Assembly: GCA_000002435.2 (NCBI GenBank)
Contig: CM018792.1
Origin: Giardia intestinalis
Lineage: Eukaryota
Length of the DNA: 64,000 nt
Direction: 5' to 3' (one strand)
Shown: positions 724 to 33,040 of the stretch, piece by piece
How positions within the stretch are numbered: the first letter of the stretch is position 1
How the letters are laid out: each line of letters starts with the position of its first letter
Position numbers and translations under genes: made by a program
The notes under the pieces: model-generated
Seen by the model: only the letters and a program-made list of their open reading frames with translations
What the model was told of the DNA's origin: nothing
Databases searched by the model: none

Positions 724-793
724 ACGTGCCTCCGGTCACGATAGCAAATTTTAAGGAAGCCAGATTTACTGTAAAACGCACCGAACCTTCTTT

Positions 794-3331
794 TTACCTC
801 CCTCCTGCTCGTCCAGATGCGCCACGCTTCTTTAGGAGCCGTGCTCTTGCTGCGTCCAGGTCTTTGTAACTATGTTGATCAACTTCCAACATATGTTGAA
901 CTTTATTGGCGGCGCGCTCTCGTCCTGTTTTAAGCTTTAGCTTTTGTTCTGTTCGGAGAGCTGCTTTCCGTCTGATTTCTCTCCGAGCACTCCGCTCCTC
1001 GTCTCGTTTCTGCTTTTTGATACGCTTCTCTTCTACACGGGCGCGCTCGCGGGCCTTGTTGGGATCCATACTCTTTCCTGGGCAAAAGTCAACCATATAC
1101 ATAGGTTCGTTTGCTTTGATCTCAGGAAGCCTATCATCTATCCAACTTAGACTCTGCTCTTTTCTTTCAGACGACAGCGTCTCAACCAGCAAATTAAGAG
1201 ACCACTGAATCGAGAATTGTGTACCAGGGGTGCTATAACTTTCTGCAGGCACTAAGTGAGATTGGAGCTCCTTGCAAATTGGCAATAGAAGTGAGTACTG
1301 TGAGGATAGGTCGTACTTCTTTGCGATCTTAAGTTGTAAGAAACATGCGTTGAGAACTGTTGAGAACCCTGCTAATATATTTCCCAGGGTGAAAGTCAGA
1401 TCGTCCTGGAATAGAGACGGTAGCAACTCAATCTTGTGTTCTGTTGGTACACTTAGGACTATGTACGGCGCAGTAATAGATTGAAAAACCTTCTTAGGTG
1501 TGTCTGTGATGGCAACGGAGTGTGCAAATAACTTGGAATATACACGGAGTATACACGCGAGGCCTCGAGACACAGATGGAATATGAAGTTGAGTTGCATT
1601 ACTTAGCATGAGGGTGGTCAGAACGAGAGCCTGCAAGAAAAGAGTCTCTTGATATATTGTACAGAGCATGCAGCTATTCATATTAATTAGTGCATCCTCT
1701 GTTGTCAAAAGAATCTGTTCAAGGCGCAAACACAGACCTTGAATTGGAGCGTCGTTGGCCAAAAACATAGCGGTATAGAGAGGCTGTTCCTCAAACACGC
1801 GCATATTAGTGAGTGCAAACTCATCTGGGGATAACGTATACCAAGTTCCTTGTGGAAAAACAATGGCCATTAAATTAGAAAGCATAACACCTCCAAATAT
1901 TGCACGACCATGTAGAGAAAGAAACCCTTTTGGCTGCTCATCACAGGCCTCTGTTTTTTGACTGGCTATAGATGCAGTGGAAAAAAGCACAGTGTCAAGA
2001 CCTTCTATTCTTTTCTTCTTATTAGAGCATTTGCTTTTTAAGGCCTCCTGATTGTGTAGAGAGATCCTCATAAAATTCACAGCCTGGACCGCTTTGTGAT
2101 ACGTTAAGATAAGCTTTTGATAGGCAGACATCATGTAATGTGGAATTTCACTGGTTATATGTCGTAGTCCTCGAGCCTGAGCGTCAATGCGAACTGGATC
2201 TAGTTCAGGCGCGTCATAGATGAGGTACATGAAGCGAGTGGTGCAGAAAGATCCCAATCTCTCCATTTCGGGACGATTAGATCTTTCCAAGAGCGTAGAG
2301 TTGGACTTAATGAGCCTGTCTAGGACCAGTATCTCCTCAATCGATTGAACAGAGTCCAACATTGCCTGGAACTCATCCATAGTACTTGGAACTGGCAACG
2401 AGAATGACAGCTTTTCGAAATATGTGGGCTGAACTTCCCGGCAGAGAAAATGAGGCAACTGATGCTCTCTAGTATCATCTTCCTCACTGTGCTCATTGCC
2501 TTCTGTGCCACTTTGCGTATCAGATTCTTCAGGAGTATCAGATGAAAAATTATCTCCTAAGTTGAAATCTCCGTTAAGGCACTCTGGATCATTACTGGTA
2601 ATATTGGTGGATTGCTGGTGGTCAAGTTTAGGACGCATAACTGGAGCTGTGCTCCTGTCTCTATCCATTTTCTCCAGTGTTTCAGCACACGCTCTTACTG
2701 CGTCGGCTAAATTAGTAGCCCCACGTGACGCATGGACGCGGACTCCATCTAAAGGTTGAAACTCTGCAACAATGGACTGGGATTCCAGACGAGTCTCTTT
2801 CGGCAACAGTCGAGACACTGTCCCATAAGCTCTGTCGAGCTGTTGTACGGCTTCTGAAACATCTCTATTAATACGCTTATGCTCTTCTCGGTAGGCTTTT
2901 GCTTTAGCACGGACCTCGGCGTAAACATCTCTAGCACGCTGCCTCATTTCCCGCTCATAAAAAATCCGCTCATCTGGCCGCGTATTATCTGGAAAATCGA
3001 ATTTCTGTGGTGTCTGATTAATACTGTGTCGTATGAGTTCGCTACGTTGATAGGAATAGCCCTTTTCTCCTTGCTTCGGAACAATGCGCTCATCATTTAT
3101 TTCCGCTATTACGTGAGCATTGTTACCCGCAGAACCAAGTGGTTTTTTGATTGCCTCGGTAATGGGCTTTGCACAAGTGTGTCTATATTTATGCTCCCCT
3201 TTGTTGAGGACTTGACGGCGTGTATTCACCTTAATATGATCAAATGGGTTCAGCTTTCCGTCTTCTACACCCATTTTCCGCTTCACTATGTCCAGTTTTG
3301 CTTGTAACTTAAGGTGGGTCGGTTTCCCCAT
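794..3331 (-). CDS. Nop14-like nucleolar (SSU processome) protein
   Basis: The track ORF 794..3604 starts at a GTG inside the GC-rich inverted repeat. The first ATG with a Giardia-type AT-rich initiator (ttaaaataaatataATGggg) is at 3331. The N-terminus, GKLNPFDHIKVNTRRQVLNKG, resembles the NPFEVKVNRQKF signature of Nop14. The C-terminal tail is long and K/R-rich. Family assignment is from memory of the motif, not a search. Confidence 0.55.
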   Translation of the reverse strand: MGKPTHLKLQAKLDIVKRKMGVEDGKLNPFDHIKVNTRRQVLNKGEHKYRHTCAKPITEAIKKPLGSAGNNAHVIAEINDERIVPKQGEKGYSYQRSELIRHSINQTPQKFDFPDNTRPDERIFYEREMRQRARDVYAEVRAKAKAYREEHKRINRDVSEAVQQLDRAYGTVSRLLPKETRLESQSIVAEFQPLDGVRVHASRGATNLADAVRACAETLEKMDRDRSTAPVMRPKLDHQQSTNITSNDPECLNGDFNLGDNFSSDTPEESDTQSGTEGNEHSEEDDTREHQLPHFLCREVQPTYFEKLSFSLPVPSTMDEFQAMLDSVQSIEEILVLDRLIKSNSTLLERSNRPEMERLGSFCTTRFMYLIYDAPELDPVRIDAQARGLRHITSEIPHYMMSAYQKLILTYHKAVQAVNFMRISLHNQEALKSKCSNKKKRIEGLDTVLFSTASIASQKTEACDEQPKGFLSLHGRAIFGGVMLSNLMAIVFPQGTWYTLSPDEFALTNMRVFEEQPLYTAMFLANDAPIQGLCLRLEQILLTTEDALINMNSCMLCTIYQETLFLQALVLTTLMLSNATQLHIPSVSRGLACILRVYSKLFAHSVAITDTPKKVFQSITAPYIVLSVPTEHKIELLPSLFQDDLTFTLGNILAGFSTVLNACFLQLKIAKKYDLSSQYSLLLPICKELQSHLVPAESYSTPGTQFSIQWSLNLLVETLSSERKEQSLSWIDDRLPEIKANEPMYMVDFCPGKSMDPNKARERARVEEKRIKKQKRDEERSARREIRRKAALRTEQKLKLKTGRERAANKVQHMLEVDQHSYKDLDAARARLLKKRGASGRAGGR

Positions 3332-4099
3332 TATATTTATTTTAAGAAGAGATTTACTCCGTGTTAACAGACGAGCTTGCCACCCGCTGCCCGAGCAGGC
3401 CCGCTGGGGCCTCTCCCCCGCCCTGCGCGGTTGACCCCGAGAGCCTGGAGGCCGCCCGATTCTGGGGAGGGGAGGGGTGTCGCGCCTCCTCGCTCTGAGC
3501 GTCGTGACCTTGCTCTTGCGACACCGTCTGGGCTTCTCCTTTCTCTCACTCAGCCCCCTTGGGGCCAACTTCTGTATGGAGTGGAAAGCAGTGATCTTGG
3601 CCACGTAGCCTAGGGCCTTGGTACTCTATGACGAAGATTGCATACGCCATGAACCTCGGGATGGCCCGAAGCTCACCGGATACTTTCTTGTCATCTCGTG
3701 GAGCGGGTGTCCGTCCCACTATCAAGGGTGTGCTCCCCGTATGCCTCTATCTTGGAGTTAGAGTACGCACTCATGGATGCCGGCGGACAGCTCCCATGCG
3801 TTGGTGCCGAGGAAGAGGTCCAGCCCTGGTTTGCCTTCCCGCTCGACCCGTCCTTCTGCTCATGGACCACAGCGCGCCTCTTGTGCAGTGCTAGGAGACG
3901 CATACCGACAGACATTGCGCCTTGCCACGTCACTGGCCGGATCTTCCTGCTCGCGGTTGGCATGCGGCTCCTCGTCTGTCTGAACAAGGCAGTGGGGGTT
4001 GGAGTGGCAGAACTAGAGCGTGTTTGCCAGAGGCGCTAGTCTGCCGGCTAGAGGCGGAGTCGAGCGATGCCTGCCCAGAGATGCTCGCTCGGCTGCGAG

Positions 4100-5720
4100 G
4101 AGCACTGCAGGGGGTTCCACGAGCGCGGGAAGGCTCCCTCCCCTAGAAGCCCCGAGGGCCCTCGCGTCCCCGAGTTCAGTCTCCAGGGGCTTTGCGGGCA
4201 TATGCGACGATCTGGGCGCAAGAGCCCTGGGTGGTCTCGAACTCCGGACGCACGCTTTCACCAGGGTTTCGCACCCGAGCGTCCTCAGATACCACCGGGT
4301 AATCAGAACGAGCTGCTTTGTCTACACAACCATGGACCGCGGCCACAGAAGTCTAGGACAACTCCTCCTTGAGCACATGCAGGCCGACGAGCCGGTCGCT
4401 GAGGGCCTGGTGTTGTCCATCATGGAGCAGCTTTCTACCGGGCTTACCTACCTCCATGACGTCTGCTGGGAGGACGCCAGCGGAGCGCCCTGCCAGGGAA
4501 TCGTCCACTAGAGCCTCACGCCCGCCGACGCCCTCATTAGACAGGACGAACAGCGCGTCGTGCTCGCAGACTTCGCGTCCACAGAAACGCTCTGCACAGT
4601 GGCAGTGCGGAGGCAGAGGGCCCCGCGTACACGGATCCTGAAGCCCTCAGATGGCGCGGCCTCCGATCTCTGGGCCCTTGGTGCTATCGCATGCGAGCCT
4701 GCCACTTTGAAGGGGCCGAGCTTCCTGGACGGGTAAGACGCAAAGGCCCCTTTGTCGCCGGATGGAAGCCGAATCTGGGCCTTGTTGTGAAGGATCTCGT
4801 GTGGGATGTCCTCGGGAGGGTCTTTGCCTCAGACCCCGAGTGGTGACCAACAGCCACCAAGCTCGCCAGCCTGCTTCTGCGTGCGGGACGTCTGCTGTGG
4901 GCCCGGATCTCCAGGCCGGCGAGTTGGCAAGCACGGGCGAGTCTCTGCGGCCAGTGCCGAGTCTGTCCTTTCGAGGCAGGGCCCGAAGATGCCGCTCAGC
5001 ATATCAGAGGCATTGGCGCATCCATCGGGCCGTTCCACCAAAGGGCGGGAGCAGCACACTGCAGACGGGCACGGGGCTTCCATCGAATCGACCGACCAGG
5101 TTGCAGCGAGCGGCACGAGGTCCCTATCCTTCCGGGTCCCTGCGAAGGACTCCTCGTGGACCCGGCTGATGCGCGCTGCCGTTACTGGAGATCTCAAGAC
5201 GGCACAGAAGCACCTTGGTGAAAAGGACAAGAAGAACGAGGCGGCGACGCGGTGTACACTCCTGCCGTCAAGGCCGGACAGGGGCCGATGCTGGAGCTCC
5301 TTGACCTTACGGATAAGGCCGGGTCACGGCGCTCATGAGGGCTGCGGACAGAGGAGACGCAGAGGCAGTGAGGCTTCTGGTGAAGCACGAGGACGGCATG
5401 AGGGATGACGATGATTGACGGCGCTCATGATAGCAGCACGGTATCGCCATCCGGAATGCGTTAAGCTTGCTAGAGAGGGAAGCATGTATGACAGGCATAA
5501 GAGGCGCGACTGCTCTTGTGCATGCGGCGGCCAACGGCAGTGCCTTGTGCATACCCTTCCTCTTGGAGAAGGAGGCATGTGTGCAGGACGCCAGTGGCTG
5601 GTCTGCTCTCGCGTGGGCAACATATCTAGATAAGCCAGAGTGTGCGAAGCTTCTTATGGGGGAGGAGGACATAGAAATCACCCCCATAGCTGGAGGGTAT
5701 GCCGACGATGGCAACAATGG
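4100..5720 (+). pseudogene. NEK-family protein kinase / ankyrin-repeat pseudogene (left-arm copy), GC-rich
   Basis: Kinase subdomains are readable: HPSVLRYH, LTYLHD..GIVH*SLTPADALIRQDEQRVVLADFAS (an in-frame TAG sits where HRD would be), and SDLWALGAIACE. Ankyrin repeats follow (TRLMRAAVTGDLKTAQKHL, TALMIAARYRHPECVKL, GATALVHAAANGSALCIPFLL, SGWSALAWATYLDKPECAKLL). They are spread over three frames with stops. The coordinates are approximate. Confidence 0.7.
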
Positions 5721-8287
5721 CAAGACCGGTGGCGACTATTGTCGACTATGACGACTATGATTACTCGACTCCTATGACCACGATTATCATGCTCCTGACG
5801 ATCATGACGTTTACGATTGCTACGGTTACTAGTATTCTGATAACTATGATTTTCATAATCCTTTTGAATGCGATTCCTTATGTGGCGCCACAGCTCTTGA
5901 GCTAGAGGATGGATCATCGAGGGATAGTGGAGGTTCTTTCAACGCGACTGCAGGGTACTAACGGGCTTCTCTACAGGCACACCTTTATACAACTGCCAAT
6001 CTGTTTGCAGCAGTAAAGCTGCGTCACCGCAGTGGCCTAGGGGCTGCTCGATCTATAATTCCGCAAGGGGCAGGCTGATAAAGCAAAACTCTGCGGCCTA
6101 ATTTGTGCCCTGTACAGCCAGCAAGCAAATCCTCTGGACCGCCAGCAGAGCTGCTCGTTCAGCGGAGCGCCGTCTCGTAGGGAGAAGCGGGACGTCACTG
6201 TCAGGCCCAAGCGAGAGTGCCGGCGCCATGCGAACAGTCTCCGGTCCCTGGAGGCCGCCCCGGGTCACCGAAGGCAGGGTATCCTATTGCACAGTGCAGG
6301 CGCGTAGCAGCTAACAGAACCGGCGCAAGTGGCGGCCGAGCGGTGGCTTTTGCGCCTCTCCGAAGTGGGGAGACAGTGTCCAGAAGGCGCGAGGTTCCCG
6401 CGATTTGTCTGGAGCCAGCCGGGAGCGTCACAGAAAAAGCATCTTGAGGGCTCCCTAGGTGCAGTGGCAAAGGGACGTCCGCTGCTTCTTCGCCAGCGGC
6501 TTGCCCGGTGGACCACAGGGCCTCCTAGGCCGCCAAGCGCGAACACAGCTGCGATGAGTGGCTACTGTACGCCCTTGTGACACAGAGTGGACGTGCAGGA
6601 TGCCAGCGACGTGCTGAGGAAGGCTTTATTACCCTCCTGCTGTCTGTGCACCTGCTCCTGGTAAGGATGCTGAGCCCATGCTTACAAGCCACGGCCCCTT
6701 TGAGAGTGGCCAAAGCCGGTGCTCGAGCAGAGATAGATGGCTGCCTCGCAGATCTCGAATCGCTGCGCATGCCGGTCCAGAGAGACACCGATCAGCCCGT
6801 CACTAGGGATGAGGATCCAGGCATGAGAATCGCCAGCCTCCCGCGCCTCGGATGGACCCAGGCGATGGTGGTACGGGGCTAAGGGTCCTGCTACATCCGG
6901 GCAGACCAGGCATTGCCTCTGAACATGACATCAGGTCAGGGCCCTGTCGCGGACAGAGGGGCGAGGCTAGAAGCCAGCCGAGGCGGAGCAGCTGCATAGA
7001 CGGGAGCGCAGGTTATTATGGCAGCAGACTTCCACAGACGAGGGAGCCCGCGCTCTACTCCAGGATGAAACAGCGACGCCCCAGAGTGCGGCCCCGAACC
7101 ATGCTGCACCCCTCCTTTTGTGGCGCGGGAAGACTGCATGCACTTCAACCACGATGCATCCGGCCTTGAACACTGTGCGGAAAGACAGGCGGCCAGTGCG
7201 ATTCATGCGACGCAAGGAAGATGCCTCACCTTCTGATGCCCTACAATGCGGGGAACATAGCCCCCTGCGCACGGGCTGTCTGCTTAAGGACGGCAAGCAC
7301 ATGGAACCAGGCATGAACGGAACCGGGTCTTGATAGCGGCACGGCTGTCTTCAAGGGAAGGGTGATCTCTTGTCTCTTTAAGCAAGACGTGCTGGATCGC
7401 ACAAGCTTACGATTGGGTGAGGAAGGCTTCTGCATGCAACTCTCTGGCATGACCTAGCTGCAAACAGGCGGCAGCGAAGAGCGGACAGCGGGCTCCAGTC
7501 GTGCGGAAGGAGGATGCACCTGCCTGAGGCTACACGCAGTCATCAGGCGGGGCGTTCTCTGCAGAGGTTACGTGCTATGCAGGGTCGTGTCAAACCGAAG
7601 GACCACTCTTAGATGAGCCAGACCAAGGTGCCCCCATCCGCGCGAGACAGGCCTGTCAGATATATGGCATGCCTGCGAAAGTGAGCGCCGACAGGCAGGG
7701 GCCCGGGTAGACCTGGCGTCCTGGCCCAGAGAGTGAACGAGGACGGCCCGCGATACTTGTCCAGCCGAAGTATGAACGCTATGATGCCCCGGGTTGGACA
7801 AGCAACTCTTAGCGCCCCCCCTGAGAGGCTGCAGAGGACGGGCTTCTGGATGGAGGGACGACCCCAGCCAGGCAGACGTGATCACAGAAGAAGGGGCGCT
7901 GGAACCCGGAACAGTGGCTGACGACTGCGTGTCTGCGCGATGCAGTGCCCACTACTGTCAGTCGGCACACGGCGGTCGGCAGGACGCAGAGCTGCAGAGT
8001 GCTGGAGGCGCCGAGCGAGGCCAGTCTCGCTCATGGGACAGAGGCTGCCTGAGCCCCGCAGTCCTGCGAGCCTCTGGACGGTGGCAACAAGAGACCTTTC
8101 ATGGTACGCATCTGCCTGGATGGCGGCGTGATCCCAGAGCCGGCATCGTACCACTTCACGAGCATCACGATCGCTGTGTCCCCCACGATGGTCACTCGGG
8201 CAGTAGTCAGGTGCAGGGCATGGCGGCTCTTCCCTGTCCCCCAGCAGGACCTCGTAAGAGTAGAGTAGATTGTATAACGATGGACGC

Positions 8288-8302
8288 GTTTACTATCTAA
8301 GT
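8288..8302 (-). terminator. VSP-type extended polyadenylation signal (ACTTAGATAGTAAAC)
   Basis: The motif starts at the A of the TGA stop. It matches the conserved ACTYAGRTAGTRAAY element found 3' of Giardia VSP genes (established knowledge). Confidence 0.75.
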
Positions 8303-10524
8303 CACGCCTTGCCCCTACATATGAACCACCAGCAGAGGAAGCCCACGAGGCCCCCAACGACGACGATGACTGCGACGGAGATGCCCGCGATGGCCCCCGT
8401 GGAGAGCCCGCTCTTATTCGTGCTTCCGCCAGTATTGTCGCCGGTATTATCATCCGTTTCGAAACATATGAACTTGCCGTTAACAGGTGTCGCGCACTGC
8501 CTGCATCCAGCCAGCCCCTCGGAGCACTTTCTGCACGGCCCATTACTACTACTCTCCTTGTAATATCCAGGAGTACATACCTTGCATGTAGTAGCATCGG
8601 CTTCGCAGGTGTAGCAACTTTCGTGGCATTTCGTGCAGGCACTGCCGACCTTCACATATCCGTCCATGCACCTAGAACAGTCCCTAGTGGTGGTGCACTC
8701 AGCGCACCCAGTGTAGCAAGCCACAAGGCTCTCGCCTGTCAGGCTAAATCCTTCTTCCGGAGTCTTGCAGGTTCCGCCTGTACTCTGCGCACTCAAGCAC
8801 ACTGTCGACCCCGGAAGCTGGCTGGTGGAGTAGCAGCCGCCGTTCATCTTGAAGAAGCCGTCTGCGCAGACATTGCACACGCCACCAGTAATGCTTCCAT
8901 CTTTGCACTTATCTGTGCGACTGGTTTTAACAGCACAGACGCCGTTCTGGGGATACTCGTTGTTTTGACTACAGACAGAGCAGTATTTTGTCCCCTCAAC
9001 AGTCAGACCGCACTCCCTGCACTTGCCTGTGCCTGTGCCCGCCGCGCACTCGGCCCCACATGTGCCAGTGTTTCCTGTGGATCCGTAGGTGAGCGCGCTT
9101 CCAGACTTACAGCTTGTGCAATCATTGGCAGTATTTCCGCTACATGTCTTACAGCTGGAATCGCAAGGGGAGCACGCTTCGCCGTAGAAGCCGTCCTTAC
9201 AGAGACCGCACCCGCCATTTTCACTGCACGCGAGACAGTTGGCGACCTCGCACTTCTTGCAGACCCTCTTGTTGCCCTCTGTGCTACTGTAGTAGCCTAG
9301 AATATATTCGCAGTGGTCTATGCACTGGTTTGTTGGCGTCAGATACTTGTTGGACAGACATTCGGTGCAGATCTCTTTGTTTGTTTGTGCACCACTGCAT
9401 GCCTTACAATCCTGAGTACTGCATGGATTTGAAGGGGAATCATTTGGCACGCATTGTGTTTCTTCTTCGTCAAGTTTAAATCCATCATTGCACGTGCAAG
9501 TATTCTCGGTCTTGGCTTCTGAGTTATCAGGGCAGCTACTAATGCACGACTTCTTTCCGAGTCCAAATACCATATTTTCCTTACACGCTGTGCAGGTAAC
9601 GGAGGTGTCACTTTTGGTGCATGTTTTGCAGTTCTCAAACGTTCCTGCCGTGCACGGCTTGCACGTCTTCGGCTCCTCATCGTCGGCGTAGTGGGTGTTT
9701 CCACTCGTGCACGCTTCCTCAGTCACGCACTCGCCTGCCTGATCCTGTGACTGCGCCTTCTTTAGGTACGGCTTGTCCTCATTGCAAGAGGTGCACTTCG
9801 TAGCCTCGGTCTCACAGGTCTTGCATGTCTCAGCGCACTTGGTGCATTTTTTACTGCCTGTTGCATCGACGAAGAAGCCTGCAGTACTCGTGCACTCATG
9901 TTCCGTCACACACGACGTCACGTCGCCGTCCGTCTTAACAATCCTCGCGGTTTGCTGCGCATCAGGGCCGCACGCAGTACACTTAGCAACTCCACTGGCC
10001 TCTACCGTTAATTGTAATCCGTCACAGGCAGTGCACCCATCCACGCCCGTGTACTTCTTATTGCCAGTAAGCGTCACGCCTATCGAATCTCCGCACGAAA
10101 CAACCGAGTCGTGCGCATTATCAGCGCCCGGCGGTAGAAAGTATCCTTCCGTAGCCTGTGTGCACTTACCACCAGCTGCTCCTCCACACATCACATTGCC
10201 AGGCTCAATAGCTTGTTCGTAACACCCGCCCTTGTACATAAAAGTCTGACCAGCGCACTTTGCACAGGTCTCATCAGATGCAGTATTTCCATCGGCAGCT
10301 GTACATTTATCTGTTACATCATCTTTGCCTACACATTTTCCATTGATAGGAACAAATCCTGTGTTACATTGAGAGCAATACAATTTACCACCGATCAGAA
10401 CGTTGCATGCGTTTGCTGCACAATTGGCGTTATTCGCGCAGTGAGCTTCCCGCGCACGTTCTGCTACTTTTTCTGCCCATGCAATCTGGATGGCTAGGCC
10501 CGCGAATATAAAACTGCCGAACAT
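8302..10524 (-). CDS. vsp: Variant-specific surface protein (VSP), 740 aa, copy 1
   Basis: Signal peptide MFGSFIFAGLAIQIAWA. Cysteine-rich with many CxxC motifs and two GGCY motifs. TM helix plus the invariant C-terminus CRGKA. Identical in protein to the ORF at 13767..15989. Confidence 0.95.
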   Translation of the reverse strand: MFGSFIFAGLAIQIAWAEKVAERAREAHCANNANCAANACNVLIGGKLYCSQCNTGFVPINGKCVGKDDVTDKCTAADGNTASDETCAKCAGQTFMYKGGCYEQAIEPGNVMCGGAAGGKCTQATEGYFLPPGADNAHDSVVSCGDSIGVTLTGNKKYTGVDGCTACDGLQLTVEASGVAKCTACGPDAQQTARIVKTDGDVTSCVTEHECTSTAGFFVDATGSKKCTKCAETCKTCETEATKCTSCNEDKPYLKKAQSQDQAGECVTEEACTSGNTHYADDEEPKTCKPCTAGTFENCKTCTKSDTSVTCTACKENMVFGLGKKSCISSCPDNSEAKTENTCTCNDGFKLDEEETQCVPNDSPSNPCSTQDCKACSGAQTNKEICTECLSNKYLTPTNQCIDHCEYILGYYSSTEGNKRVCKKCEVANCLACSENGGCGLCKDGFYGEACSPCDSSCKTCSGNTANDCTSCKSGSALTYGSTGNTGTCGAECAAGTGTGKCRECGLTVEGTKYCSVCSQNNEYPQNGVCAVKTSRTDKCKDGSITGGVCNVCADGFFKMNGGCYSTSQLPGSTVCLSAQSTGGTCKTPEEGFSLTGESLVACYTGCAECTTTRDCSRCMDGYVKVGSACTKCHESCYTCEADATTCKVCTPGYYKESSSNGPCRKCSEGLAGCRQCATPVNGKFICFETDDNTGDNTGGSTNKSGLSTGAIAGISVAVIVVVGGLVGFLCWWFICRGKA

Positions 10525-10590
10525 TAACCAATCTGGTAGATTGATAGGAACAGAATCGCGATATATTCAGCCAATCCGTGTGACTGACAC

Positions 10591-10607
10591 ATGATGATGA
10601 TGATGAT
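10591..10607. repeat. (CAT/ATG)5 trinucleotide microsatellite about 70 nt upstream of the VSP copy 1 ATG
   Basis: atgatgatgatgatgat, read directly. Mirror of 13684-13700. Confidence 0.9.
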
Positions 10608-11449
10608 TTACTCCACCCACCGGTTGCTTCCAGTGGTGTGCTGCTGGGGCCCTCGCCTGCAGGCGCTGTCCGCAAATCTCGCGAGTAAATTCCCGCTCAA
10701 TTTTTGGCGATGTCCGGAGATGAGGGTTGGTCACGGGCCGTAACGATAATCACAGCGGTTGTAAGGAGGAGCTATCTGCATTCCTCGGCTGTTCCGTGGG
10801 CATGCGCACACAACCGGACCTGAAACGAAGGAGAGCCCGCAAGGACCCGATCCACATCATGAACGCAAGATCGTACCTTCGGGCCCCCAGAGAGCAAGCC
10901 GTGAGTCTCTACTTGGGAGACCACTCCAAAGACGCTTGCCCTCTCGGCAGGACACACACGCTGGCTCTGTGGCCTACCGTGCAAGAGTGCCAACAATCAA
11001 CCGAGCACCTGAGAGAAGCAAATGATAACAGACACAGAGTACTAGGTGACGACAAACTGATCATTCCATCCCATATACCGAACCAGACAGCTGCCATGCT
11101 CATCCACCAGGGTGCAGCATGATCGCGAGCATCGAGCAGGCCGGGACTGGGGTAGCGCTCCCCGCTATCAGGGGCCTGAACGCCTTGGTAGGAAACTGCT
11201 AGAAGACTCAAGCAACACAGCAGAGCAGACCCAGAGCAAGGCGGACCCAGACCCCGAGAAGGCGAGACGCCGGATAGCAAACAGGGTGAACAACGCGCTG
11301 AGTTTCGGGGCAGTTGCCAAGGCCCTCCGCGCCCTTGATGACACGCCCACGATAGACAAGCCGGAGAAGGCCGACCGCCCTCAGCGCGCTACACCTGTGC
11401 GTCCCCCCGAAGGCTACGTTGGCCTTGACTACCCTCCATCGATGAGCTC

Positions 11450-13360
11450 GACGGGCTGGAGTGGCAACCGAAGAAGAAATGAGGAAGGCTCTGTTTGAGA
11501 CTCTCAACAAGAAGGCCTCGGGCCGGTCCAGCTCAAGGCGATGAAGCAGAGCGACAGCTTCGTGAAGTACCTCACGCAGGCATACAACGAGCTGACCACC
11601 CACCCCGAGGCGATGCCAGAGGTGATGGCCATGCTCGAGTTCCGGGCGATCCTCATCCCGAAGGAGTCCGACGGATACCGCCCGATCGCGATAGGCGAGA
11701 CGGTGACAAACATCTTCCACCGCGTCCTGCTGAAGGGCTGATCAGGCATGCCAACTACCTCTTGTGCGAACAGATCGCCTTCATGCAGAACGCATACGCG
11801 GTAGGCGTGAGGAGGGCCCACGAGCTCATCAGCAGGACAGGAGCACGCCGTCTCCCTCGACACAAAGAACGCCCTCAACTCGCTCCCGAGGGCGGAGGTC
11901 GTCAGAGCCCTGAACGAGGCGGGCGTCCCGAAGGTCCTGGTCGACTACATCGGGGACTTCCTCGACCTGAGGCACAGCCGGGACGTGAAGTGCGAGGTCT
12001 GCGGCGTCCCCCAGGGCGACCCGCTCAGCATGCTCCTCTTCTGCATGGCCACCGAGCGCCTCCTGAGACGCCTCAGGGAGAGGGGCATCACCTTCCTTGC
12101 CTATGCGGACGACATCGTGGCGTTCCACGACGAGGCCTACCCAGCAGGCGTGATAACACAGCTGGCCATGGGCCTGACGATCAGGAGCGACAATGCAAGT
12201 CCACCATGGCGGGCGAGGAGGTGACCTTCCCCAACCACCCGGTGTCCCCCACTCCTGCCAGTCTCGCGCCGAAGGCCATCGCAGGTGCCGAGACTGCCCT
12301 GAGGAAGATTGAGAACGCCCCCATAACCACCCACCAGAAGCTCATCCTGATGTCACTCTGCGTGGTCCCGATGGTGAACTACGCCCCCCTGGTCGAGATA
12401 ACATCGGATAAGGCGGACTACAAGGAGCTGACAGATATCGCACAAGGCTTCAGCAAGCTAACCAGCAGAAGCTGCGATCGCCTGGTCGACTTCCTGGCGT
12501 ACCAAAGGAGAAGGGCGGCCCGGGCCTGCTCATGCCGGGGTTCTACCACGACGAGCTGCGGAGAGCATGGGCCTCCCTGGACGTCAACAAGGGGACCAGA
12601 GACCCGGTGGAGCTGCCGGTGGAAGGCCAGGCACTGCAAGGGAAGGGGACCTACTCCAACCGCCTCCTCACGCATACACCAGCTTCCGGACAGAGCGGCG
12701 GCGTGCTGACCGAGGAGGAAAGGGCCCTGAAGCAGAGAGATGGCTCGATCATGGGGCAGACAAGAGGCACCTGCCCGGGCTGCCACACGGCAAGGACCCT
12801 CGACCGCGACATGATCGTCACGTGCCTGTACCTCCGCGTCTCAGGGAAGTTCAACGCAGAGCTGGAGGTCAAGACCCACAGCCACCTCAGCGGCCAGAAC
12901 CAGAAGCCCGACATCTGGTTCGTCGACAAGTGCAAGGCGATAGATGTGGGTGTCATCCAGCCCCGCCAGATGGACGCCTACTACAACGAGAAGGTCAAGA
13001 AGTACAGGGACGGGACGCTCCCGATCATCTACGGGACAGACGGATCCCTCCACCCAAGTCCAAGGGGCACCTCGAGGAGCTCCACGTGGACCTCTGTCCG
13101 GGCTGCCTTCGCCATCGCCCACATGGCTGCAAAGGCGAACGAGCACCCGACGAAGCTGATCAGACGGGCCGGGCCGAAAGCCTGGCCACCCAGAGCGACC
13201 GTCTCCTGTCATCCTACTTCTGACAACCGAATGAGTCCATCCCCGGGACCTGTCGACAACGACCGAGAAGGGGCGCAAGACTGGACACACAACCGAGTTG
13301 AATCCCAACCAGAAGAGAAAGCCCCGCTAGCTGCTGCTGATATACATGGACAGTATTGAG
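11450..13360 (+). mobile_element. Degenerate non-LTR (LINE-like) retrotransposon remnant: RT domain with a frameshift and stop, and a REL-endonuclease domain in another frame
   Basis: Track frame 0 carries the RT motifs. RAILIPKESDGYRPIAIGETVTNIFHRVLL covers the IPK..RPI motif (track ORF 11541..11741, which ends in TGA). AVSLDTKNALNSLPR, GVPQGDPLSMLLF and FLAYADDIVAF follow (track ORF 11985..12224). KKASGP upstream lies in a different frame. Track ORF 12532..13359 is in another frame and carries CPGCHTARTLDRDMIVTC (CCHC) plus KPDIWFVDKCKAIDVGV (PD..D/ExK). That is the C-terminal REL-endo architecture of Genie/GilM/GilT/GilD-type Giardia elements (family assignment from established knowledge, no search). 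Local coordinates are approximate to within a few nt. Confidence 0.8.
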
Positions 13361-13683
13361 AATGACAACAAAGACCAGAGCTTCACTCACCGTGAAGGGA
13401 GAGCAAGGAGAGGCACCCTAGTAGACCAGCAAGCCTGCAGGACGGCTTGATCTCTGAAAGAACCGATGTGCACACCCAGTCTGAGCTCACGCCCACGGAA
13501 CAGCCGAGGAATGCAGATAGCTCCTCCCTTCCACTACTGTGGTCTTTGTATTGATACACGACCAACCCTCGTCTCCGGACTAGTCAGGGACTGAGCAAGA
13601 GCTTACCCGTGAGATCTCTGGACCATACCTGCAGGCGAGGGCCCCAGCAGCACACCACTGGAAGCAACCGGTGGGTGGAGTAA

Positions 13684-13700
13684 ATCATCATCATCATCAT
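13684..13700. repeat. (ATC)5 microsatellite upstream of the VSP copy 2 ATG, running into an ATG at 13699
   Basis: atcatcatcatcatcatg. The ATG at 13699 opens a 22-codon uORF. Its TAA stop (13765-13767) overlaps the VSP ATG (13767) as ggtTAATGttc. Confidence 0.9.
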
Positions 13701-13766
13701 GTGTCAGTCACACGGATTGGCTGAATATATCGCGATTCTGTTCCTATCAATCTACCAGATTGGTTA

Positions 13767-15989
13767 ATGTTCGGCAGTTTTATATTCGCGGGCCTAGCCA
13801 TCCAGATTGCATGGGCAGAAAAAGTAGCAGAACGTGCGCGGGAAGCTCACTGCGCGAATAACGCCAATTGTGCAGCAAACGCATGCAACGTTCTGATCGG
13901 TGGTAAATTGTATTGCTCTCAATGTAACACAGGATTTGTTCCTATCAATGGAAAATGTGTAGGCAAAGATGATGTAACAGATAAATGTACAGCTGCCGAT
14001 GGAAATACTGCATCTGATGAGACCTGTGCAAAGTGCGCTGGTCAGACTTTTATGTACAAGGGCGGGTGTTACGAACAAGCTATTGAGCCTGGCAATGTGA
14101 TGTGTGGAGGAGCAGCTGGTGGTAAGTGCACACAGGCTACGGAAGGATACTTTCTACCGCCGGGCGCTGATAATGCGCACGACTCGGTTGTTTCGTGCGG
14201 AGATTCGATAGGCGTGACGCTTACTGGCAATAAGAAGTACACGGGCGTGGATGGGTGCACTGCCTGTGACGGATTACAATTAACGGTAGAGGCCAGTGGA
14301 GTTGCTAAGTGTACTGCGTGCGGCCCTGATGCGCAGCAAACCGCGAGGATTGTTAAGACGGACGGCGACGTGACGTCGTGTGTGACGGAACATGAGTGCA
14401 CGAGTACTGCAGGCTTCTTCGTCGATGCAACAGGCAGTAAAAAATGCACCAAGTGCGCTGAGACATGCAAGACCTGTGAGACCGAGGCTACGAAGTGCAC
14501 CTCTTGCAATGAGGACAAGCCGTACCTAAAGAAGGCGCAGTCACAGGATCAGGCAGGCGAGTGCGTGACTGAGGAAGCGTGCACGAGTGGAAACACCCAC
14601 TACGCCGACGATGAGGAGCCGAAGACGTGCAAGCCGTGCACGGCAGGAACGTTTGAGAACTGCAAAACATGCACCAAAAGTGACACCTCCGTTACCTGCA
14701 CAGCGTGTAAGGAAAATATGGTATTTGGACTCGGAAAGAAGTCGTGCATTAGTAGCTGCCCTGATAACTCAGAAGCCAAGACCGAGAATACTTGCACGTG
14801 CAATGATGGATTTAAACTTGACGAAGAAGAAACACAATGCGTGCCAAATGATTCCCCTTCAAATCCATGCAGTACTCAGGATTGTAAGGCATGCAGTGGT
14901 GCACAAACAAACAAAGAGATCTGCACCGAATGTCTGTCCAACAAGTATCTGACGCCAACAAACCAGTGCATAGACCACTGCGAATATATTCTAGGCTACT
15001 ACAGTAGCACAGAGGGCAACAAGAGGGTCTGCAAGAAGTGCGAGGTCGCCAACTGTCTCGCGTGCAGTGAAAATGGCGGGTGCGGTCTCTGTAAGGACGG
15101 CTTCTACGGCGAAGCGTGCTCCCCTTGCGATTCCAGCTGTAAGACATGTAGCGGAAATACTGCCAATGATTGCACAAGCTGTAAGTCTGGAAGCGCGCTC
15201 ACCTACGGATCCACAGGAAACACTGGCACATGTGGGGCCGAGTGCGCGGCGGGCACAGGCACAGGCAAGTGCAGGGAGTGCGGTCTGACTGTTGAGGGGA
15301 CAAAATACTGCTCTGTCTGTAGTCAAAACAACGAGTATCCCCAGAACGGCGTCTGTGCTGTTAAAACCAGTCGCACAGATAAGTGCAAAGATGGAAGCAT
15401 TACTGGTGGCGTGTGCAATGTCTGCGCAGACGGCTTCTTCAAGATGAACGGCGGCTGCTACTCCACCAGCCAGCTTCCGGGGTCGACAGTGTGCTTGAGT
15501 GCGCAGAGTACAGGCGGAACCTGCAAGACTCCGGAAGAAGGATTTAGCCTGACAGGCGAGAGCCTTGTGGCTTGCTACACTGGGTGCGCTGAGTGCACCA
15601 CCACTAGGGACTGTTCTAGGTGCATGGACGGATATGTGAAGGTCGGCAGTGCCTGCACGAAATGCCACGAAAGTTGCTACACCTGCGAAGCCGATGCTAC
15701 TACATGCAAGGTATGTACTCCTGGATATTACAAGGAGAGTAGTAGTAATGGGCCGTGCAGAAAGTGCTCCGAGGGGCTGGCTGGATGCAGGCAGTGCGCG
15801 ACACCTGTTAACGGCAAGTTCATATGTTTCGAAACGGATGATAATACCGGCGACAATACTGGCGGAAGCACGAATAAGAGCGGGCTCTCCACGGGGGCCA
15901 TCGCGGGCATCTCCGTCGCAGTCATCGTCGTCGTTGGGGGCCTCGTGGGCTTCCTCTGCTGGTGGTTCATATGTAGGGGCAAGGCGTGA
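13767..15989 (+). CDS. vsp: Variant-specific surface protein (VSP), 740 aa, copy 2 (identical to copy 1)
   Basis: Same translation as 8302..10524. ATG at 13767. Ends ...WWFICRGKA. Confidence 0.95.
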   Translation: MFGSFIFAGLAIQIAWAEKVAERAREAHCANNANCAANACNVLIGGKLYCSQCNTGFVPINGKCVGKDDVTDKCTAADGNTASDETCAKCAGQTFMYKGGCYEQAIEPGNVMCGGAAGGKCTQATEGYFLPPGADNAHDSVVSCGDSIGVTLTGNKKYTGVDGCTACDGLQLTVEASGVAKCTACGPDAQQTARIVKTDGDVTSCVTEHECTSTAGFFVDATGSKKCTKCAETCKTCETEATKCTSCNEDKPYLKKAQSQDQAGECVTEEACTSGNTHYADDEEPKTCKPCTAGTFENCKTCTKSDTSVTCTACKENMVFGLGKKSCISSCPDNSEAKTENTCTCNDGFKLDEEETQCVPNDSPSNPCSTQDCKACSGAQTNKEICTECLSNKYLTPTNQCIDHCEYILGYYSSTEGNKRVCKKCEVANCLACSENGGCGLCKDGFYGEACSPCDSSCKTCSGNTANDCTSCKSGSALTYGSTGNTGTCGAECAAGTGTGKCRECGLTVEGTKYCSVCSQNNEYPQNGVCAVKTSRTDKCKDGSITGGVCNVCADGFFKMNGGCYSTSQLPGSTVCLSAQSTGGTCKTPEEGFSLTGESLVACYTGCAECTTTRDCSRCMDGYVKVGSACTKCHESCYTCEADATTCKVCTPGYYKESSSNGPCRKCSEGLAGCRQCATPVNGKFICFETDDNTGDNTGGSTNKSGLSTGAIAGISVAVIVVVGGLVGFLCWWFICRGKA

Positions 15990-16003
15990 CTTAGATAGTA
16001 AAC
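15989..16003 (+). terminator. VSP-type extended polyadenylation signal (ACTTAGATAGTAAAC)
   Basis: tgACTTAGATAGTAAACgcg, read directly after the copy-2 stop codon. Confidence 0.75.
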
Positions 16004-18570: not shown

Positions 18571-20191
18571 CCATTGTTGCCATCGTCGGCATACCCTCCA
18601 GCTATGGGGGTGATTTCTATGTCCTCCTCCCCCATAAGAAGCTTCGCACACTCTGGCTTATCTAGATATGTTGCCCACGCGAGAGCAGACCAGCCACTGG
18701 CGTCCTGCACACATGCCTCCTTCTCCAAGAGGAAGGGTATGCACAAGGCACTGCCGTTGGCCGCCGCATGCACAAGAGCAGTCGCGCCTCTTATGCCTGT
18801 CATACATGCTTCCCTCTCTAGCAAGCTTAACGCATTCCGGATGGCGATACCGTGCTGCTATCATGAGCGCCGTCAATCATCGTCATCCCTCATGCCGTCC
18901 TCGTGCTTCACCAGAAGCCTCACTGCCTCTGCGTCTCCTCTGTCCGCAGCCCTCATGAGCGCCGTGACCCGGCCTTATCCGTAAGGTCAAGGAGCTCCAG
19001 CATCGGCCCCTGTCCGGCCTTGACGGCAGGAGTGTACACCGCGTCGCCGCCTCGTTCTTCTTGTCCTTTTCACCAAGGTGCTTCTGTGCCGTCTTGAGAT
19101 CTCCAGTAACGGCAGCGCGCATCAGCCGGGTCCACGAGGAGTCCTTCGCAGGGACCCGGAAGGATAGGGACCTCGTGCCGCTCGCTGCAACCTGGTCGGT
19201 CGATTCGATGGAAGCCCCGTGCCCGTCTGCAGTGTGCTGCTCCCGCCCTTTGGTGGAACGGCCCGATGGATGCGCCAATGCCTCTGATATGCTGAGCGGC
19301 ATCTTCGGGCCCTGCCTCGAAAGGACAGACTCGGCACTGGCCGCAGAGACTCGCCCGTGCTTGCCAACTCGCCGGCCTGGAGATCCGGGCCCACAGCAGA
19401 CGTCCCGCACGCAGAAGCAGGCTGGCGAGCTTGGTGGCTGTTGGTCACCACTCGGGGTCTGAGGCAAAGACCCTCCCGAGGACATCCCACACGAGATCCT
19501 TCACAACAAGGCCCAGATTCGGCTTCCATCCGGCGACAAAGGGGCCTTTGCGTCTTACCCGTCCAGGAAGCTCGGCCCCTTCAAAGTGGCAGGCTCGCAT
19601 GCGATAGCACCAAGGGCCCAGAGATCGGAGGCCGCGCCATCTGAGGGCTTCAGGATCCGTGTACGCGGGGCCCTCTGCCTCCGCACTGCCACTGTGCAGA
19701 GCGTTTCTGTGGACGCGAAGTCTGCGAGCACGACGCGCTGTTCGTCCTGTCTAATGAGGGCGTCGGCGGGCGTGAGGCTCTAGTGGACGATTCCCTGGCA
19801 GGGCGCTCCGCTGGCGTCCTCCCAGCAGACGTCATGGAGGTAGGTAAGCCCGGTAGAAAGCTGCTCCATGATGGACAACACCAGGCCCTCAGCGACCGGC
19901 TCGTCGGCCTGCATGTGCTCAAGGAGGAGTTGTCCTAGACTTCTGTGGCCGCGGTCCATGGTTGTGTAGACAAAGCAGCTCGTTCTGATTACCCGGTGGT
20001 ATCTGAGGACGCTCGGGTGCGAAACCCTGGTGAAAGCGTGCGTCCGGAGTTCGAGACCACCCAGGGCTCTTGCGCCCAGATCGTCGCATATGCCCGCAAA
20101 GCCCCTGGAGACTGAACTCGGGGACGCGAGGGCCCTCGGGGCTTCTAGGGGAGGGAGCCTTCCCGCGCTCGTGGAACCCCCTGCAGTGCTC
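18571..20191 (-). pseudogene. NEK-family kinase / ankyrin-repeat pseudogene (right-arm copy)
   Basis: Exact mirror image of 4100-5720. The mirrored ORFs (18658..18876, 18540..18824, 19780..20271) have identical translations. Confidence 0.7.
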
Positions 20192-32929: not shown

Positions 32930-33040
32930 TTTAAAATTGGAGGAAAAGCGTGGACCAAAAAAACAAAAAATGAAATCGCATTCAGAACAATACAGTCTGA
33001 CACCCAGTAACACTAAAAAAACGTTTGACTGTTCGGATGA

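What the first reader, a model, noticed from the sequence alone, without database searches (positions are those of the whole stretch)
3375..8301. GC-rich arms contain a NEK/ankyrin pseudokinase pseudogene; possible GC-biased gene conversion signature
The arm segment outside the VSP is visibly far more GC-rich than the flanking core genes, with long runs such as cccgctgcccgagcaggcccgctggggcctctcccccgccctgcgcgg. This produces overlapping stop-free ORFs on both strands. Within it is a recognisable NEK kinase plus ankyrin gene broken by an in-frame TAG in the catalytic loop (GIVH*SLTPAD) and by frameshifts between the ankyrin repeats. The intact NEK genes elsewhere in this window (54678..57014 and 62115..) have ordinary composition. 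GC enrichment confined to the palindrome arms would be the expected footprint of long-term GC-biased gene conversion between arms. Alternatively, the block derives from a GC-rich chromosome-end region, since VSP, NEK/ankyrin genes and non-LTR elements typically co-occur there in Giardia.
Basis: partly seen in the sequence, partly recalled or inferred. Interest (0 to 1): 0.6.

Follow-up and report, generated by a model that had tools for sequence, protein, structure and literature searches.

The report
GC-rich Giardia VSP palindrome with dead kinase
This is a catalogued inverted pair of surface-antigen (VSP) genes in the Giardia WB reference genome. Its GC-rich arms do carry a decayed NEK kinase gene, but the GC-richness is shared by the unique centre and by the same kinds of sequence elsewhere, so it is not a footprint of arm-to-arm gene conversion.

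Summary
The window is Giardia intestinalis WB-C6 chromosome 4. A perfect 7,325-nt inverted repeat (3375-10699 / 13592-20916) lies between the core genes Nop14 and PreP. The arm outside the VSP gene is 60.8% GC against 44-46% in the flanks, and the change occurs within about 50 bp. The arm holds a NEK kinase/ankyrin pseudogene with the stated in-frame TAG and frameshifts.

The unique 2.9-kb spacer, a dead retrotransposon, is equally GC-rich at 60.5%. Two further copies of that element in isolate DH are also 60.3-60.5% GC, one of them set between core genes, with a substitution equilibrium near 58%. The pseudogene's closest intact relatives have the same GC at codon positions 1 and 3. Only position 2 has risen, as expected when constraint is lost.

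The arms do evolve in concert: in isolate DH they are identical to each other over the testable 419 nt but differ from WB there.

The VSP pair and its reverse-transcriptase remnant are already listed by Xu et al. 2020 (Table 2: 50229/d50229). What remains of interest is a compartment-wide effect. Dead elements evolve towards about 58% GC while neighbouring core genes drift towards about 37%, and the arms diverge several times faster than core synonymous sites.

The parts
3375..10699 (.). Left arm of the perfect palindrome
   Evidence: It is 100% complementary to 13592-20916 over 7,325 nt. The junction with the Nop14 flank is reproduced at 100% identity in at least 20 independent short-read contigs.
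13592..20916 (.). Right arm of the perfect palindrome
   Evidence: Inverted repeat found. The junction with the PreP flank is reproduced in independent contigs L001-L008, and L002 runs 3,092 nt into the arm.
3425..3980 (.). Outer-arm segment related to a short dispersed repeat
   Evidence: Matches of 71-76% lie beside dead reverse-transcriptase copies in DH (L013 7774-8236, L014 5957-6040) and next to PreP in P15 (L021).
4020..5700 (+). NEK kinase/ankyrin pseudogene (kinase about 4140-4760, ankyrin repeats about 5160-5700)
   Evidence: Pkinase E=8.6e-8 and Ank_2 E=3.8e-16. The in-frame TAG at about 4509-4511 is shared with DH. tblastn matches fall in three frames. The closest intact relatives are only 41% (kinase) and 45% (ankyrin) identical. 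The N-terminal part of the kinase domain is missing from the match.
5700..5900 (.). AT-richer low-complexity patch inside the arm
   Evidence: GC is 0.47, and there is a 9-nt unit repeated three times at 5733-5760.
6101..8301 (.). GC-rich arm DNA with no recognisable coding content
   Evidence: GC is 0.615. No Pfam hit in any of six frames. Three-base GC periodicity is weak. This is the part most diverged from DH, at 90.3% identity.
8302..10524 (-). VSP gene, 740 aa (GL50803_50229 or its duplicate d50229)
   Evidence: Pfam VSP E=1e-136 and a CRGKA tail. Exact match to KAE8304422/KAE8304423. Listed in Xu 2020 Table 2. GC is 0.528.
13767..15989 (+). Second, identical VSP gene, head to head with the first
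   Evidence: ORF list. It lies inside the perfect arm. The 3,242 bp between the ORFs matches Xu 2020 Table 2.
10607..13684 (+). Dead non-LTR retrotransposon unit, with frameshifts, bounded by terminal inverted repeats of about 200 nt
   Evidence: RVT_1 E=2.3e-17 in one frame, with the reading frame broken. It is about 86% identical by BLAST (91% in ungapped alignment columns) to two DH copies, L013 8546-11672 and L014 9193-12292. Terminal repeats aligned. GC is 0.605.
10700..13591 (.). Unique spacer between the perfect arms
   Evidence: 2,892 nt at GC 0.605. Its ends (10712-10810 and 13482-13580) are a 79% inverted repeat, which is the inner half of the element's terminal repeats.
794..3331 (-). 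Core gene Nop14-like, left boundary of the island
   Evidence: Pfam Nop14. Corresponds to KAE8304421. GC is 0.45. It is 99.0% identical to DH.
20954..24355 (-). Core gene PreP-like M16 metalloprotease, right boundary of the island
   Evidence: Pfam M16C_assoc and PreP_C. Corresponds to KAE8304424. GC is 0.452. Homology with P15 stops at window 20922.

Best explanation
The 17.5-kb block 3375-20916 is one of the known inverted pairs of identical VSP genes in Giardia WB (chromosome 4, GL50803_50229/d50229). It sits as a lineage-variable, gene-poor island between two conserved core genes.

**Structure.** At its centre is a dead non-LTR retrotransposon with terminal inverted repeats of about 200 nt. 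On each side lie a VSP gene and 4.9 kb of decaying DNA that includes a pseudogene of a NEK pseudokinase with ankyrin repeats.

**Arm identity.** The two arms are kept identical by intrachromosomal gene conversion. This is shown by concerted evolution between WB and DH.

**GC content.** The high GC is real but is not produced by that arm-to-arm exchange. It belongs to the whole island and to this class of sequence wherever it occurs.
- The NEK subfamily the pseudogene came from is already about 56% GC, with GC3 about 0.64.
- The dead retroelement family is about 60% GC everywhere and sits at its substitution equilibrium.
- Positions released from protein constraint, seen as GC2 rising from 0.41 to 0.50-0.57, drift up to that local equilibrium of about 0.58-0.62.

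**Underlying cause (inferred, not shown).** The local equilibrium differs from that of neighbouring core genes. This may reflect GC-biased repair during the frequent ectopic or allelic recombination of these multicopy families, or a regional difference in mutation spectrum.
For: - **Identity of the locus.** Exact protein matches to WB KAE8304421-24. Xu 2020 Table 2 lists 50229/d50229, pointing away from each other, 740 aa, 3,242 bp apart, with a reverse-transcriptase remnant between.
- **GC across the island.** Arm outside the VSP 0.608, spacer 0.605, VSP 0.528, flanks 0.444 and 0.461.
- **Retroelement copies elsewhere.** Two DH copies are 0.603-0.605 GC. Equilibrium GC is 0.56-0.59 from three sequences and 0.578 (CI 0.50-0.64) from four, with no difference between the copies at this palindrome locus and those elsewhere.
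- **Intact NEK relatives.** GC is 0.554-0.565 with GC3 0.62-0.64. At aligned codons GC1 and GC3 equal those of the pseudogene and only GC2 differs. There is no third-position AT-to-GC excess.
- **Concerted evolution.** The DH arms are 100% identical to each other over 419 flank-anchored nt but 96.4% identical to WB. The WB arms show 0 differences in 7,325 nt.
- **Age of the pseudogene.** The TAG is shared by WB and DH, while a 2-nt indel and a second stop are lineage-specific.
- **Other isolates.** The DH island has the same composition, with arm GC 0.616. P15 has unrelated DNA of 0.65-0.68 GC at the same breakpoint.
- **Contrast with core genes.** Third positions of PreP and Rav1 give an equilibrium GC3 of 0.37 (CI 0.29-0.46), significantly different from the dead element (p about 1e-5).
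Against: - No outgroup exists for the arms themselves, so the direction of their substitutions could not be measured. A modest arm-specific GC push on top of the compartment effect cannot be excluded.
- Only one palindrome and two other element copies were examined, not the whole genome.
- The pseudogene is somewhat more GC-rich overall than its relatives (0.62 against 0.56).
- Parsimony polarisation at about 9% divergence can bias equilibrium estimates.
- Identity of the DH arms is established only for the outer 419 nt.
Confidence: 0.7

Rival explanations
1. Arm-to-arm GC-biased gene conversion. Repeated conversion between the two arms favours G/C alleles and has raised the GC of the arms above their surroundings.
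For: The arms are 100% identical and evolve in concert between AI and AII, so conversion does occur. The GC step coincides with the outer arm boundaries. A 2025 paper reports that Giardia genes in gene-conversion tracts are GC-enriched and enriched for VSPs (PMC12669663).
Against: The unique spacer, which has no arm partner, is equally GC-rich. Copies of the spacer element at other loci in DH have the same GC and the same equilibrium. The VSP genes, which are converted just as often, are only 0.528 GC. Synonymous positions of the pseudogene match those of intact relatives, with no AT-to-GC excess. At sites where WB and DH arms differ the two directions are roughly balanced (194 against 158).
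Confidence: 0.08
2. Compartment-wide GC-biased conversion. Frequent ectopic and allelic recombination among multicopy VSP, NEK and dead retroelement sequences, not specifically between the two arms, drives the whole variable compartment to about 60% GC and speeds its divergence.
For: Equilibrium GC is 0.58 in dead elements against 0.37 at core third positions. WB-DH divergence in the arm is 7.7%, against 1.4% at Nop14 third positions and about 3% at PreP/Rav1 third positions, rising towards the VSP, and the VSP itself has been replaced in one lineage. Mismatches are clustered, with a variance-to-mean ratio of about 3. The four dead-element copies show a star-like or mosaic relationship, with informative sites split 22/22/19. 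The element's terminal repeats are homogenised to different extents in different copies. GC-enriched conversion tracts are reported in PMC12669663.
Against: A regional mutation bias or a chromatin or transcription effect would give the same pattern. No polymorphism-frequency data were examined. The sample of loci is small. Clustering of mismatches may partly reflect alignment around indels.
Confidence: 0.35
3. The block was transposed from a GC-rich subtelomeric region.
For: Its content (VSP, NEK/ankyrin, non-LTR reverse transcriptase) is the mix typical of Giardia variable regions. Related retroelement families are telomeric according to the literature cited in Xu 2020.
Against: There are no TAGGG telomere repeats, allowing up to 2 mismatches, and no rRNA or other Rfam family. 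Core genes flank both sides in WB and DH, and P15 also has a GC-rich variable segment at the same breakpoint next to PreP. The island has therefore been a long-standing internal variable site since before the A/E split. The dead element also occurs between core genes elsewhere.
Confidence: 0.1
4. Assembly artefact. The perfect palindrome is a chimeric long-read or polishing product.
For: 100% identity over 7.3 kb is what an artefact would also give. Old assemblies broke here, and short-read contigs stop about 30 nt into the arm.
Against: Both outer junctions are reproduced exactly in many independent short-read data sets. Both junctions also exist in the independent DH assembly, with lineage-specific differences. 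The spacer is asymmetric and homologous to a real repeat family. The pair is listed in the genome paper.
Confidence: 0.02

Closest known systems
Identical inverted VSP gene pairs of Giardia WB (Adam et al. 2010, PMC2996952; Xu et al. 2020, PMC7000408, Table 2)
   Same: Two identical VSP ORFs in inverted orientation, 3,242 bp apart, with a reverse-transcriptase remnant between them. This exact pair (chromosome 4, 50229/d50229, 740 aa) is listed. Identity ends abruptly on both sides.
   Different: In the pairs tabulated in 2010, identity ends 139-729 bp outside the ORFs. Here it runs 4,927 bp beyond the stop codon and takes in a whole pseudogene. None of the four head-to-head pairs tabulated in 2010 has this 3,242-bp spacing. 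Neither paper comments on the arm composition or the NEK pseudogene.
Giardia NEK kinase/ankyrin family (about 180 members in WB, many catalytically dead)
   Same: A kinase domain followed by ankyrin repeats. The closest relative, P0003, shares the degenerate catalytic loop (YRSLTPAS against H*SLTPAD, instead of HRDLKPxN). These GC-rich relatives lie in variable surroundings: P0002 is next to a VSP, and the DH NEK in L014 is between VSPs and a dead retroelement.
   Different: It is not a functional member. It has an in-frame TAG, a second stop, at least three frame changes and no match to the N-terminal part of the kinase domain. It has no relative closer than about 41-45% identity.
GilD, the 'dead' non-LTR retrotransposon family of Giardia (Arkhipova and Morrison 2001; recalled from memory, paper not held)
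   Same: A reverse-transcriptase domain followed by a Cys/His-containing C-terminal region. All copies seen carry frameshifts. Copies are about 90% alike. The location is internal rather than telomeric.
   Different: No GilD reference sequence was available, so the assignment is an inference. The terminal inverted repeats of about 200 nt seen on all three full copies are not a normal feature of non-LTR elements.
Large palindromes kept identical by arm-to-arm gene conversion (for example the primate Y-chromosome ampliconic palindromes; from general knowledge)
   Same: Near-perfect arms around a unique spacer. The arms are identical within a lineage but diverged between lineages.
   Different: In those systems a raised arm GC relative to the spacer is taken as the footprint of biased conversion. 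Here arm and spacer are equal (0.608 against 0.605).

Membership tests
Giardia identical inverted VSP pair | Two VSP ORFs with identical sequence in inverted orientation | tested here: met
   8302-10524(-) and 13767-15989(+) lie inside 100% identical arms. Pfam VSP E=1e-136 and a CRGKA tail.
Giardia identical inverted VSP pair | About 2-4 kb of intervening DNA, and identity ending abruptly outside the ORFs | tested here: met
   3,242 bp lie between the ORFs. Identity ends 175 nt upstream of each ATG and 4,927 nt beyond each stop; the latter is unusually long.
Giardia identical inverted VSP pair | Listed in the published catalogue | tested here: met
   Xu 2020 Table 2 lists chromosome 4, 50229/d50229, pointing away from each other, 740 aa, 3,242 bp, reverse-transcriptase remnant. 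Accessions KAE8304422/3.
NEK kinase with ankyrin repeats | Protein kinase domain plus ankyrin repeats | tested here: met
   Pkinase 32.3 bits (cut-off 31.7) and Ank_2 59.8 bits.
NEK kinase with ankyrin repeats | Uninterrupted reading frame, that is, a functional gene | tested here: not met
   Stops at about 4509 and about 4722, and matches in three frames. It is also disabled in DH.
Non-LTR retrotransposon (GilD-like) | Reverse-transcriptase domain | tested here: met
   RVT_1 E=2.3e-17. Relatives annotated as reverse transcriptase/endonuclease are 55-78% identical.
Non-LTR retrotransposon (GilD-like) | Sequence identity to the GilD consensus | not testable with these tools
   No reference sequence is held and the paper is not held.
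Footprint of arm-to-arm GC-biased gene conversion | Conversion between the arms actually occurs (concerted evolution) | tested here: met
   WB arms show 0 differences in 7,325 nt. DH arms show 0 in 419 nt, while WB and DH differ at 12 sites plus 1 indel there.
Footprint of arm-to-arm GC-biased gene conversion | Arms more GC-rich than adjacent non-converting sequence of the same kind (the spacer) | tested here: not met
   0.608 against 0.605. Element copies at other loci are 0.603-0.605.
Footprint of arm-to-arm GC-biased gene conversion | Excess of AT-to-GC substitutions in the arms | tested here: inconclusive
   No outgroup is available. Unpolarised WB/DH differences are 194 against 158. Synonymous positions of the pseudogene against intact relatives show no excess.
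Subtelomeric block | Telomere repeats, rDNA or tandem telomeric retroelements adjacent | tested here: not met
   No TAGGG repeats and no Rfam hit. Core genes lie on both sides in two assemblages, and the PreP-side breakpoint is the same in a third.

The most novel reading that the evidence does not exclude
Giardia's variable-gene islands (VSP, NEK, dead retroelement) evolve under a separate, fast and GC-favouring substitution regime. Equilibrium GC is about 0.58 there against about 0.37 at synonymous sites of adjacent core genes, and AI-AII divergence is roughly 2.5-5 times higher. The driver would be recombination-associated biased repair in a largely asexual protist. In addition, the long perfect palindromes would be seeded from the roughly 200-nt terminal inverted repeats of a dead retrotransposon: the perfect identity begins inside that repeat, and four of the seven head-to-head VSP pairs in WB have such a remnant at their centre.
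Probability: 0.3. Interest if true: 0.55.

Novelty: already known. Interest (0 to 1): 0.25.

Why it matters
For the finding as stated, it matters little. The locus is a catalogued VSP pair, and the GC excess is ordinary for this type of Giardia DNA.

Two by-products could matter to people working on Giardia genome evolution and antigenic variation.
- There is direct evidence that the arms of a VSP palindrome evolve in concert, while the VSP itself has been swapped between the AI and AII lineages.
- There is a measurable difference in substitution equilibrium and rate between variable islands and adjacent core genes. This gives a concrete, testable handle on whether recombination-driven GC bias operates in an organism whose sexuality is debated.

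Tried and rejected
- **Exact lookup of the VSP.** It returned nothing from the contig index, although the cluster table identified it. The 845-aa Nop14 and protein P0004 were also not on record.
- **Arm segment 5700-8301.** A six-frame Pfam scan found nothing (after a formatting failure), and codon-phase GC periodicity gave no hidden gene.
- **RNA genes.** Rfam and tRNA scans of 1-26000 were empty.
- **Telomere repeats.** None were found.
- **P15 as an outgroup for the arms.** Only 71%-identical scraps are shared.
- **A possible target-site duplication.** 'AGATTTACT' lies outside both arm ends, but it also occurs at both ends of the retroelement and matches the Giardia polyadenylation-signal consensus AGTAAAT (my own knowledge). 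I therefore treat it as a shared functional motif, not a duplication.
- **Opposite orientation of the retroelement in the DH contig.** This could indicate flipping of the spacer by recombination between the arms. However, a short-read assembly cannot orient a spacer between 7-kb identical arms, so I do not rely on it.
- **The Arkhipova and Morrison 2001 paper** could not be read, and literature searches for GilD gave no usable description.

Full report
**Source and anatomy**

Exact protein look-ups place the window in Giardia intestinalis WB clone C6, in the 2020 chromosome-scale reference. Nop14-like is KAE8304421, the two identical VSPs are KAE8304422 and KAE8304423, and the PreP-like M16 metalloprotease is KAE8304424, all on a 2.76-Mb record.

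The repeat finder reports a perfect inverted repeat with arms at 3375-10699 and 13592-20916. It is 7,325 nt long and 100% complementary, with a 2,892-nt spacer. A further 79% inverted repeat lies just inside the arms, at 10712-10810 and 13482-13580.

- Each arm carries a 740-aa VSP (Pfam VSP E=1e-136, CRGKA tail), and the two genes are head to head.
- The spacer contains a reverse-transcriptase domain (RVT_1 E=2.3e-17) in a reading frame broken by frameshifts.
- The core genes Nop14 (794-3331, minus strand) and PreP (20954-24355, minus strand) abut the arms.

Xu et al. 2020 list exactly this pair in their Table 2: chromosome 4, 50229/d50229, pointing away from each other, 740 aa, 3,242 bp apart, reverse-transcriptase remnant between (PMC7000408). 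Adam et al. 2010 described the class: 14 identical inverted VSP pairs, 2-4 kb apart, with identity ending abruptly 139-729 bp outside the ORFs (PMC2996952). None of their four head-to-head pairs has this spacing. Here the identity runs 4,927 bp past the stop codon.

**Is the structure real?**

Yes. Independent short-read contigs reproduce both outer junctions at 100% identity. PreP-side contigs come from 20 or more samples. One of them, and at least 20 Nop14-side contigs, run 3,092 nt into the arm. The independent DH (assemblage AII) assembly has both junctions at the same positions.

**Checking the observation**

| Segment | GC |
|---|---|
| Left flank | 0.444 |
| Arm outside the VSP (3375-8301) | 0.608 |
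| NEK pseudogene | 0.622 |
| VSP | 0.528 |
| Spacer | 0.605 |
| Right flank (43 kb) | 0.461 |

- No 4.9-kb window in the right flank exceeds 0.493.
- GC jumps from 0.32 to 0.80 within about 50 bp at 3375 and falls symmetrically at 20916.
- Stop codons are about half as frequent in the arm and the spacer as in the flanks. This produces the overlapping spurious ORFs on both strands.
- The pseudogene is confirmed. Pkinase matches at E=8.6e-8 and Ank_2 at E=3.8e-16. The TAG gives QGIVH*SLTPAD. A second stop and matches in three frames follow.
- The closest relative (P0003) has the same degenerate catalytic loop, YRSLTPAS, whereas the other relatives aligned have an HRDL-type (or HHDL) loop. The ancestor was therefore already a pseudokinase.
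- The two intact NEKs in the window are 0.48 GC.
- The only other GC peak in the window is a cathepsin-like gene with GC3 0.75, which is a codon-usage effect.
- The one incorrect element is the assumption that the enrichment is confined to the arms.

**Testing arm-to-arm biased conversion**

*Spacer control.* The spacer has no partner to convert with, yet it matches the arms in GC (0.605 against 0.608).

*Copies at other loci.* The spacer is a unit of about 3.1 kb (window 10607-13684) with terminal inverted repeats of about 200 nt.
- One DH copy sits between the core genes NOT2 and EamA with no VSP pair (L013 8546-11672).
- Another lies next to an intact NEK at the end of its contig (L014 9193-12292).
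- Both are 0.603-0.605 GC, and the first is embedded in 0.45-0.48 core DNA.

Lineage-specific substitutions in these dead copies give an equilibrium GC of 0.56-0.59 from three sequences. Singleton sites among four sequences give 0.578 (95% CI 0.50-0.64). The two copies at this palindrome locus (0.64 and 0.52) do not differ from the two elsewhere (0.57 and 0.60).

The closest relatives are themselves GC-rich, at 0.554-0.565 overall with GC3 0.62-0.64.

| At aligned codons | GC1 | GC2 | GC3 |
|---|---|---|---|
| Pseudogene | 0.64 | 0.50 | 0.66-0.69 |
| Intact relatives | 0.61-0.63 | 0.40-0.44 | 0.66-0.69 |

Where the amino acid is identical, third positions show no AT-to-GC excess (26 against 20, 28 against 25, 26 against 21). 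The extra GC of the pseudogene is therefore loss of amino-acid constraint at second positions, drifting to the local background.

*The VSP genes.* They are converted as often as the rest of the arm but are only 0.528 GC, like the VSP in locus L012 (0.54).

**The arms do evolve in concert**

- In DH, the PreP-side contig reaches 419 nt into its arm, about one 454 read length, so it is anchored in unique flank.
- Those 419 nt are 100% identical to the Nop14-side arm of DH but 96.4% identical to WB (12 mismatches and 1 gap).
- Together with 0 differences in 7,325 nt in WB, this shows homogenisation after the AI/AII split.
- The pseudogene's TAG is shared by both lineages. A 2-nt indel and the second stop are lineage-specific, so the gene was dead before the split and is decaying neutrally.

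**A compartment effect remains**

- WB and DH are 99.0-99.2% identical in the flank, with 1.4% divergence at Nop14 third positions.
- They are only 92.3% identical in the outer arm. Identity falls from 96.6% at the edge to about 90% near the VSP.
- The VSP itself is a different gene in DH (747 aa, with patches of about 72% identity).
- Mismatches are clustered, with a variance-to-mean ratio of about 3.
- Using P15 as outgroup, third positions of PreP and Rav1 show 46 AT-to-GC against 70 GC-to-AT changes. This gives an equilibrium GC3 of 0.37 (CI 0.29-0.46), significantly different from the dead element (p about 1e-5).
- In P15, homology stops at window 20922, and unrelated DNA of 0.65-0.68 GC follows.

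This inter-genic site has therefore been a GC-rich variable island since before the A/E split. Something in such islands favours GC and speeds divergence. GC-biased repair during ectopic or allelic recombination is a reasonable candidate; PMC12669663 reports GC-enriched, VSP-enriched conversion tracts. A regional mutation bias would look the same with the present data.

**Mechanism of the palindrome (inference)**

The perfect identity ends inside the element's terminal inverted repeat, at 10699 and 13592. The inner halves of those repeats are only 79% alike in WB but 97% alike in a solo DH copy. Four of the seven head-to-head pairs in WB have a reverse-transcriptase remnant at the centre.

A short inverted repeat that templates fold-back or break-induced copying of one flank would produce exactly this geometry. 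Conversion would then maintain it. This was not tested.

**Other rivals**

- A subtelomeric origin lacks support. There are no telomere repeats or rRNA, and the site is internal and conserved.
- An assembly artefact is excluded by the independent junctions.

**Verdict**

The proposed cause is not supported. The structure is already catalogued. Interest is low, with a modest residual lead in the compartment-specific substitution regime.

Noticed in passing
window 10607-10810 and 13476-13684; L013 8544-8732 and 11485-11674: The dead retrotransposon unit carries terminal inverted repeats of about 200 nt starting TTTACTCCACCC. This is unusual for a non-LTR element. The perfect palindrome identity stops inside this repeat, and the two ends exist as two sequence variants that are homogenised to different extents in different copies.
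   Followed up: partly
L016 2716-4959 (DH), compared with window 8302-10524: At the orthologous locus, assemblage AII carries a different VSP (747 aa, only about 72% identical in patches). The 5' and 3' ends and the outer arms are orthologous, so the VSP has been replaced in one lineage.
   Followed up: partly
window 1-8442 compared with L016 (reverse complement) 9208-17720: AI-AII identity falls from 99% in the core flank to 96.6% at the arm edge and about 90% near the VSP. That is several times the divergence at synonymous sites of the adjacent genes.
   Followed up: partly
L016 (reverse complement) 20268-22538, compared with window 13634-11470: In the DH contig the central retroelement lies in the opposite orientation relative to the Nop14 flank. 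This is either flipping of the spacer by recombination between the arms, or an assembly ambiguity caused by the long identical arms.
   Followed up: no
window about 3425-3980; L013 7774-8236; L014 5957-6040; L021 about 13900-14080: A short GC-rich dispersed repeat at the outer edge of the arm recurs, at 71-76% identity, beside dead retroelement copies in DH and next to PreP in P15.
   Followed up: partly
window 6466: Every short-read contig that enters the arm from either flank stops at exactly this position. This suggests a repeat boundary or a heterozygous site there. Nothing obvious is visible in the sequence.
   Followed up: no
window 3351-3360, 10605-10614, 13677-13686, 20929-20938: GATTTACT(C/T)C, the reverse complement of an AGTAAAT motif resembling the Giardia polyadenylation signal, lies just outside both arm ends and at both ends of the retroelement. 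It is probably a shared functional motif rather than a target-site duplication.
   Followed up: partly
window 5700-5900: An AT-richer patch (GC 0.47) with a short 9-nt repeat (CGACTATGA, three copies) interrupts the GC-rich arm just after the ankyrin remnant.
   Followed up: no
window 32027-32953 (minus strand): A cathepsin-like cysteine protease gene with GC3 0.75 forms the only GC peak in the core flank. This is a codon-usage effect unrelated to the island.
   Followed up: yes
L021 13402-15010 (P15): In assemblage E, synteny with WB breaks within 6 nt of the WB arm boundary. An unrelated GC-rich stretch of about 400 nt (0.65-0.68) and then an AT-rich stretch follow, so the same site is a variable island in a third lineage.
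   Followed up: partly
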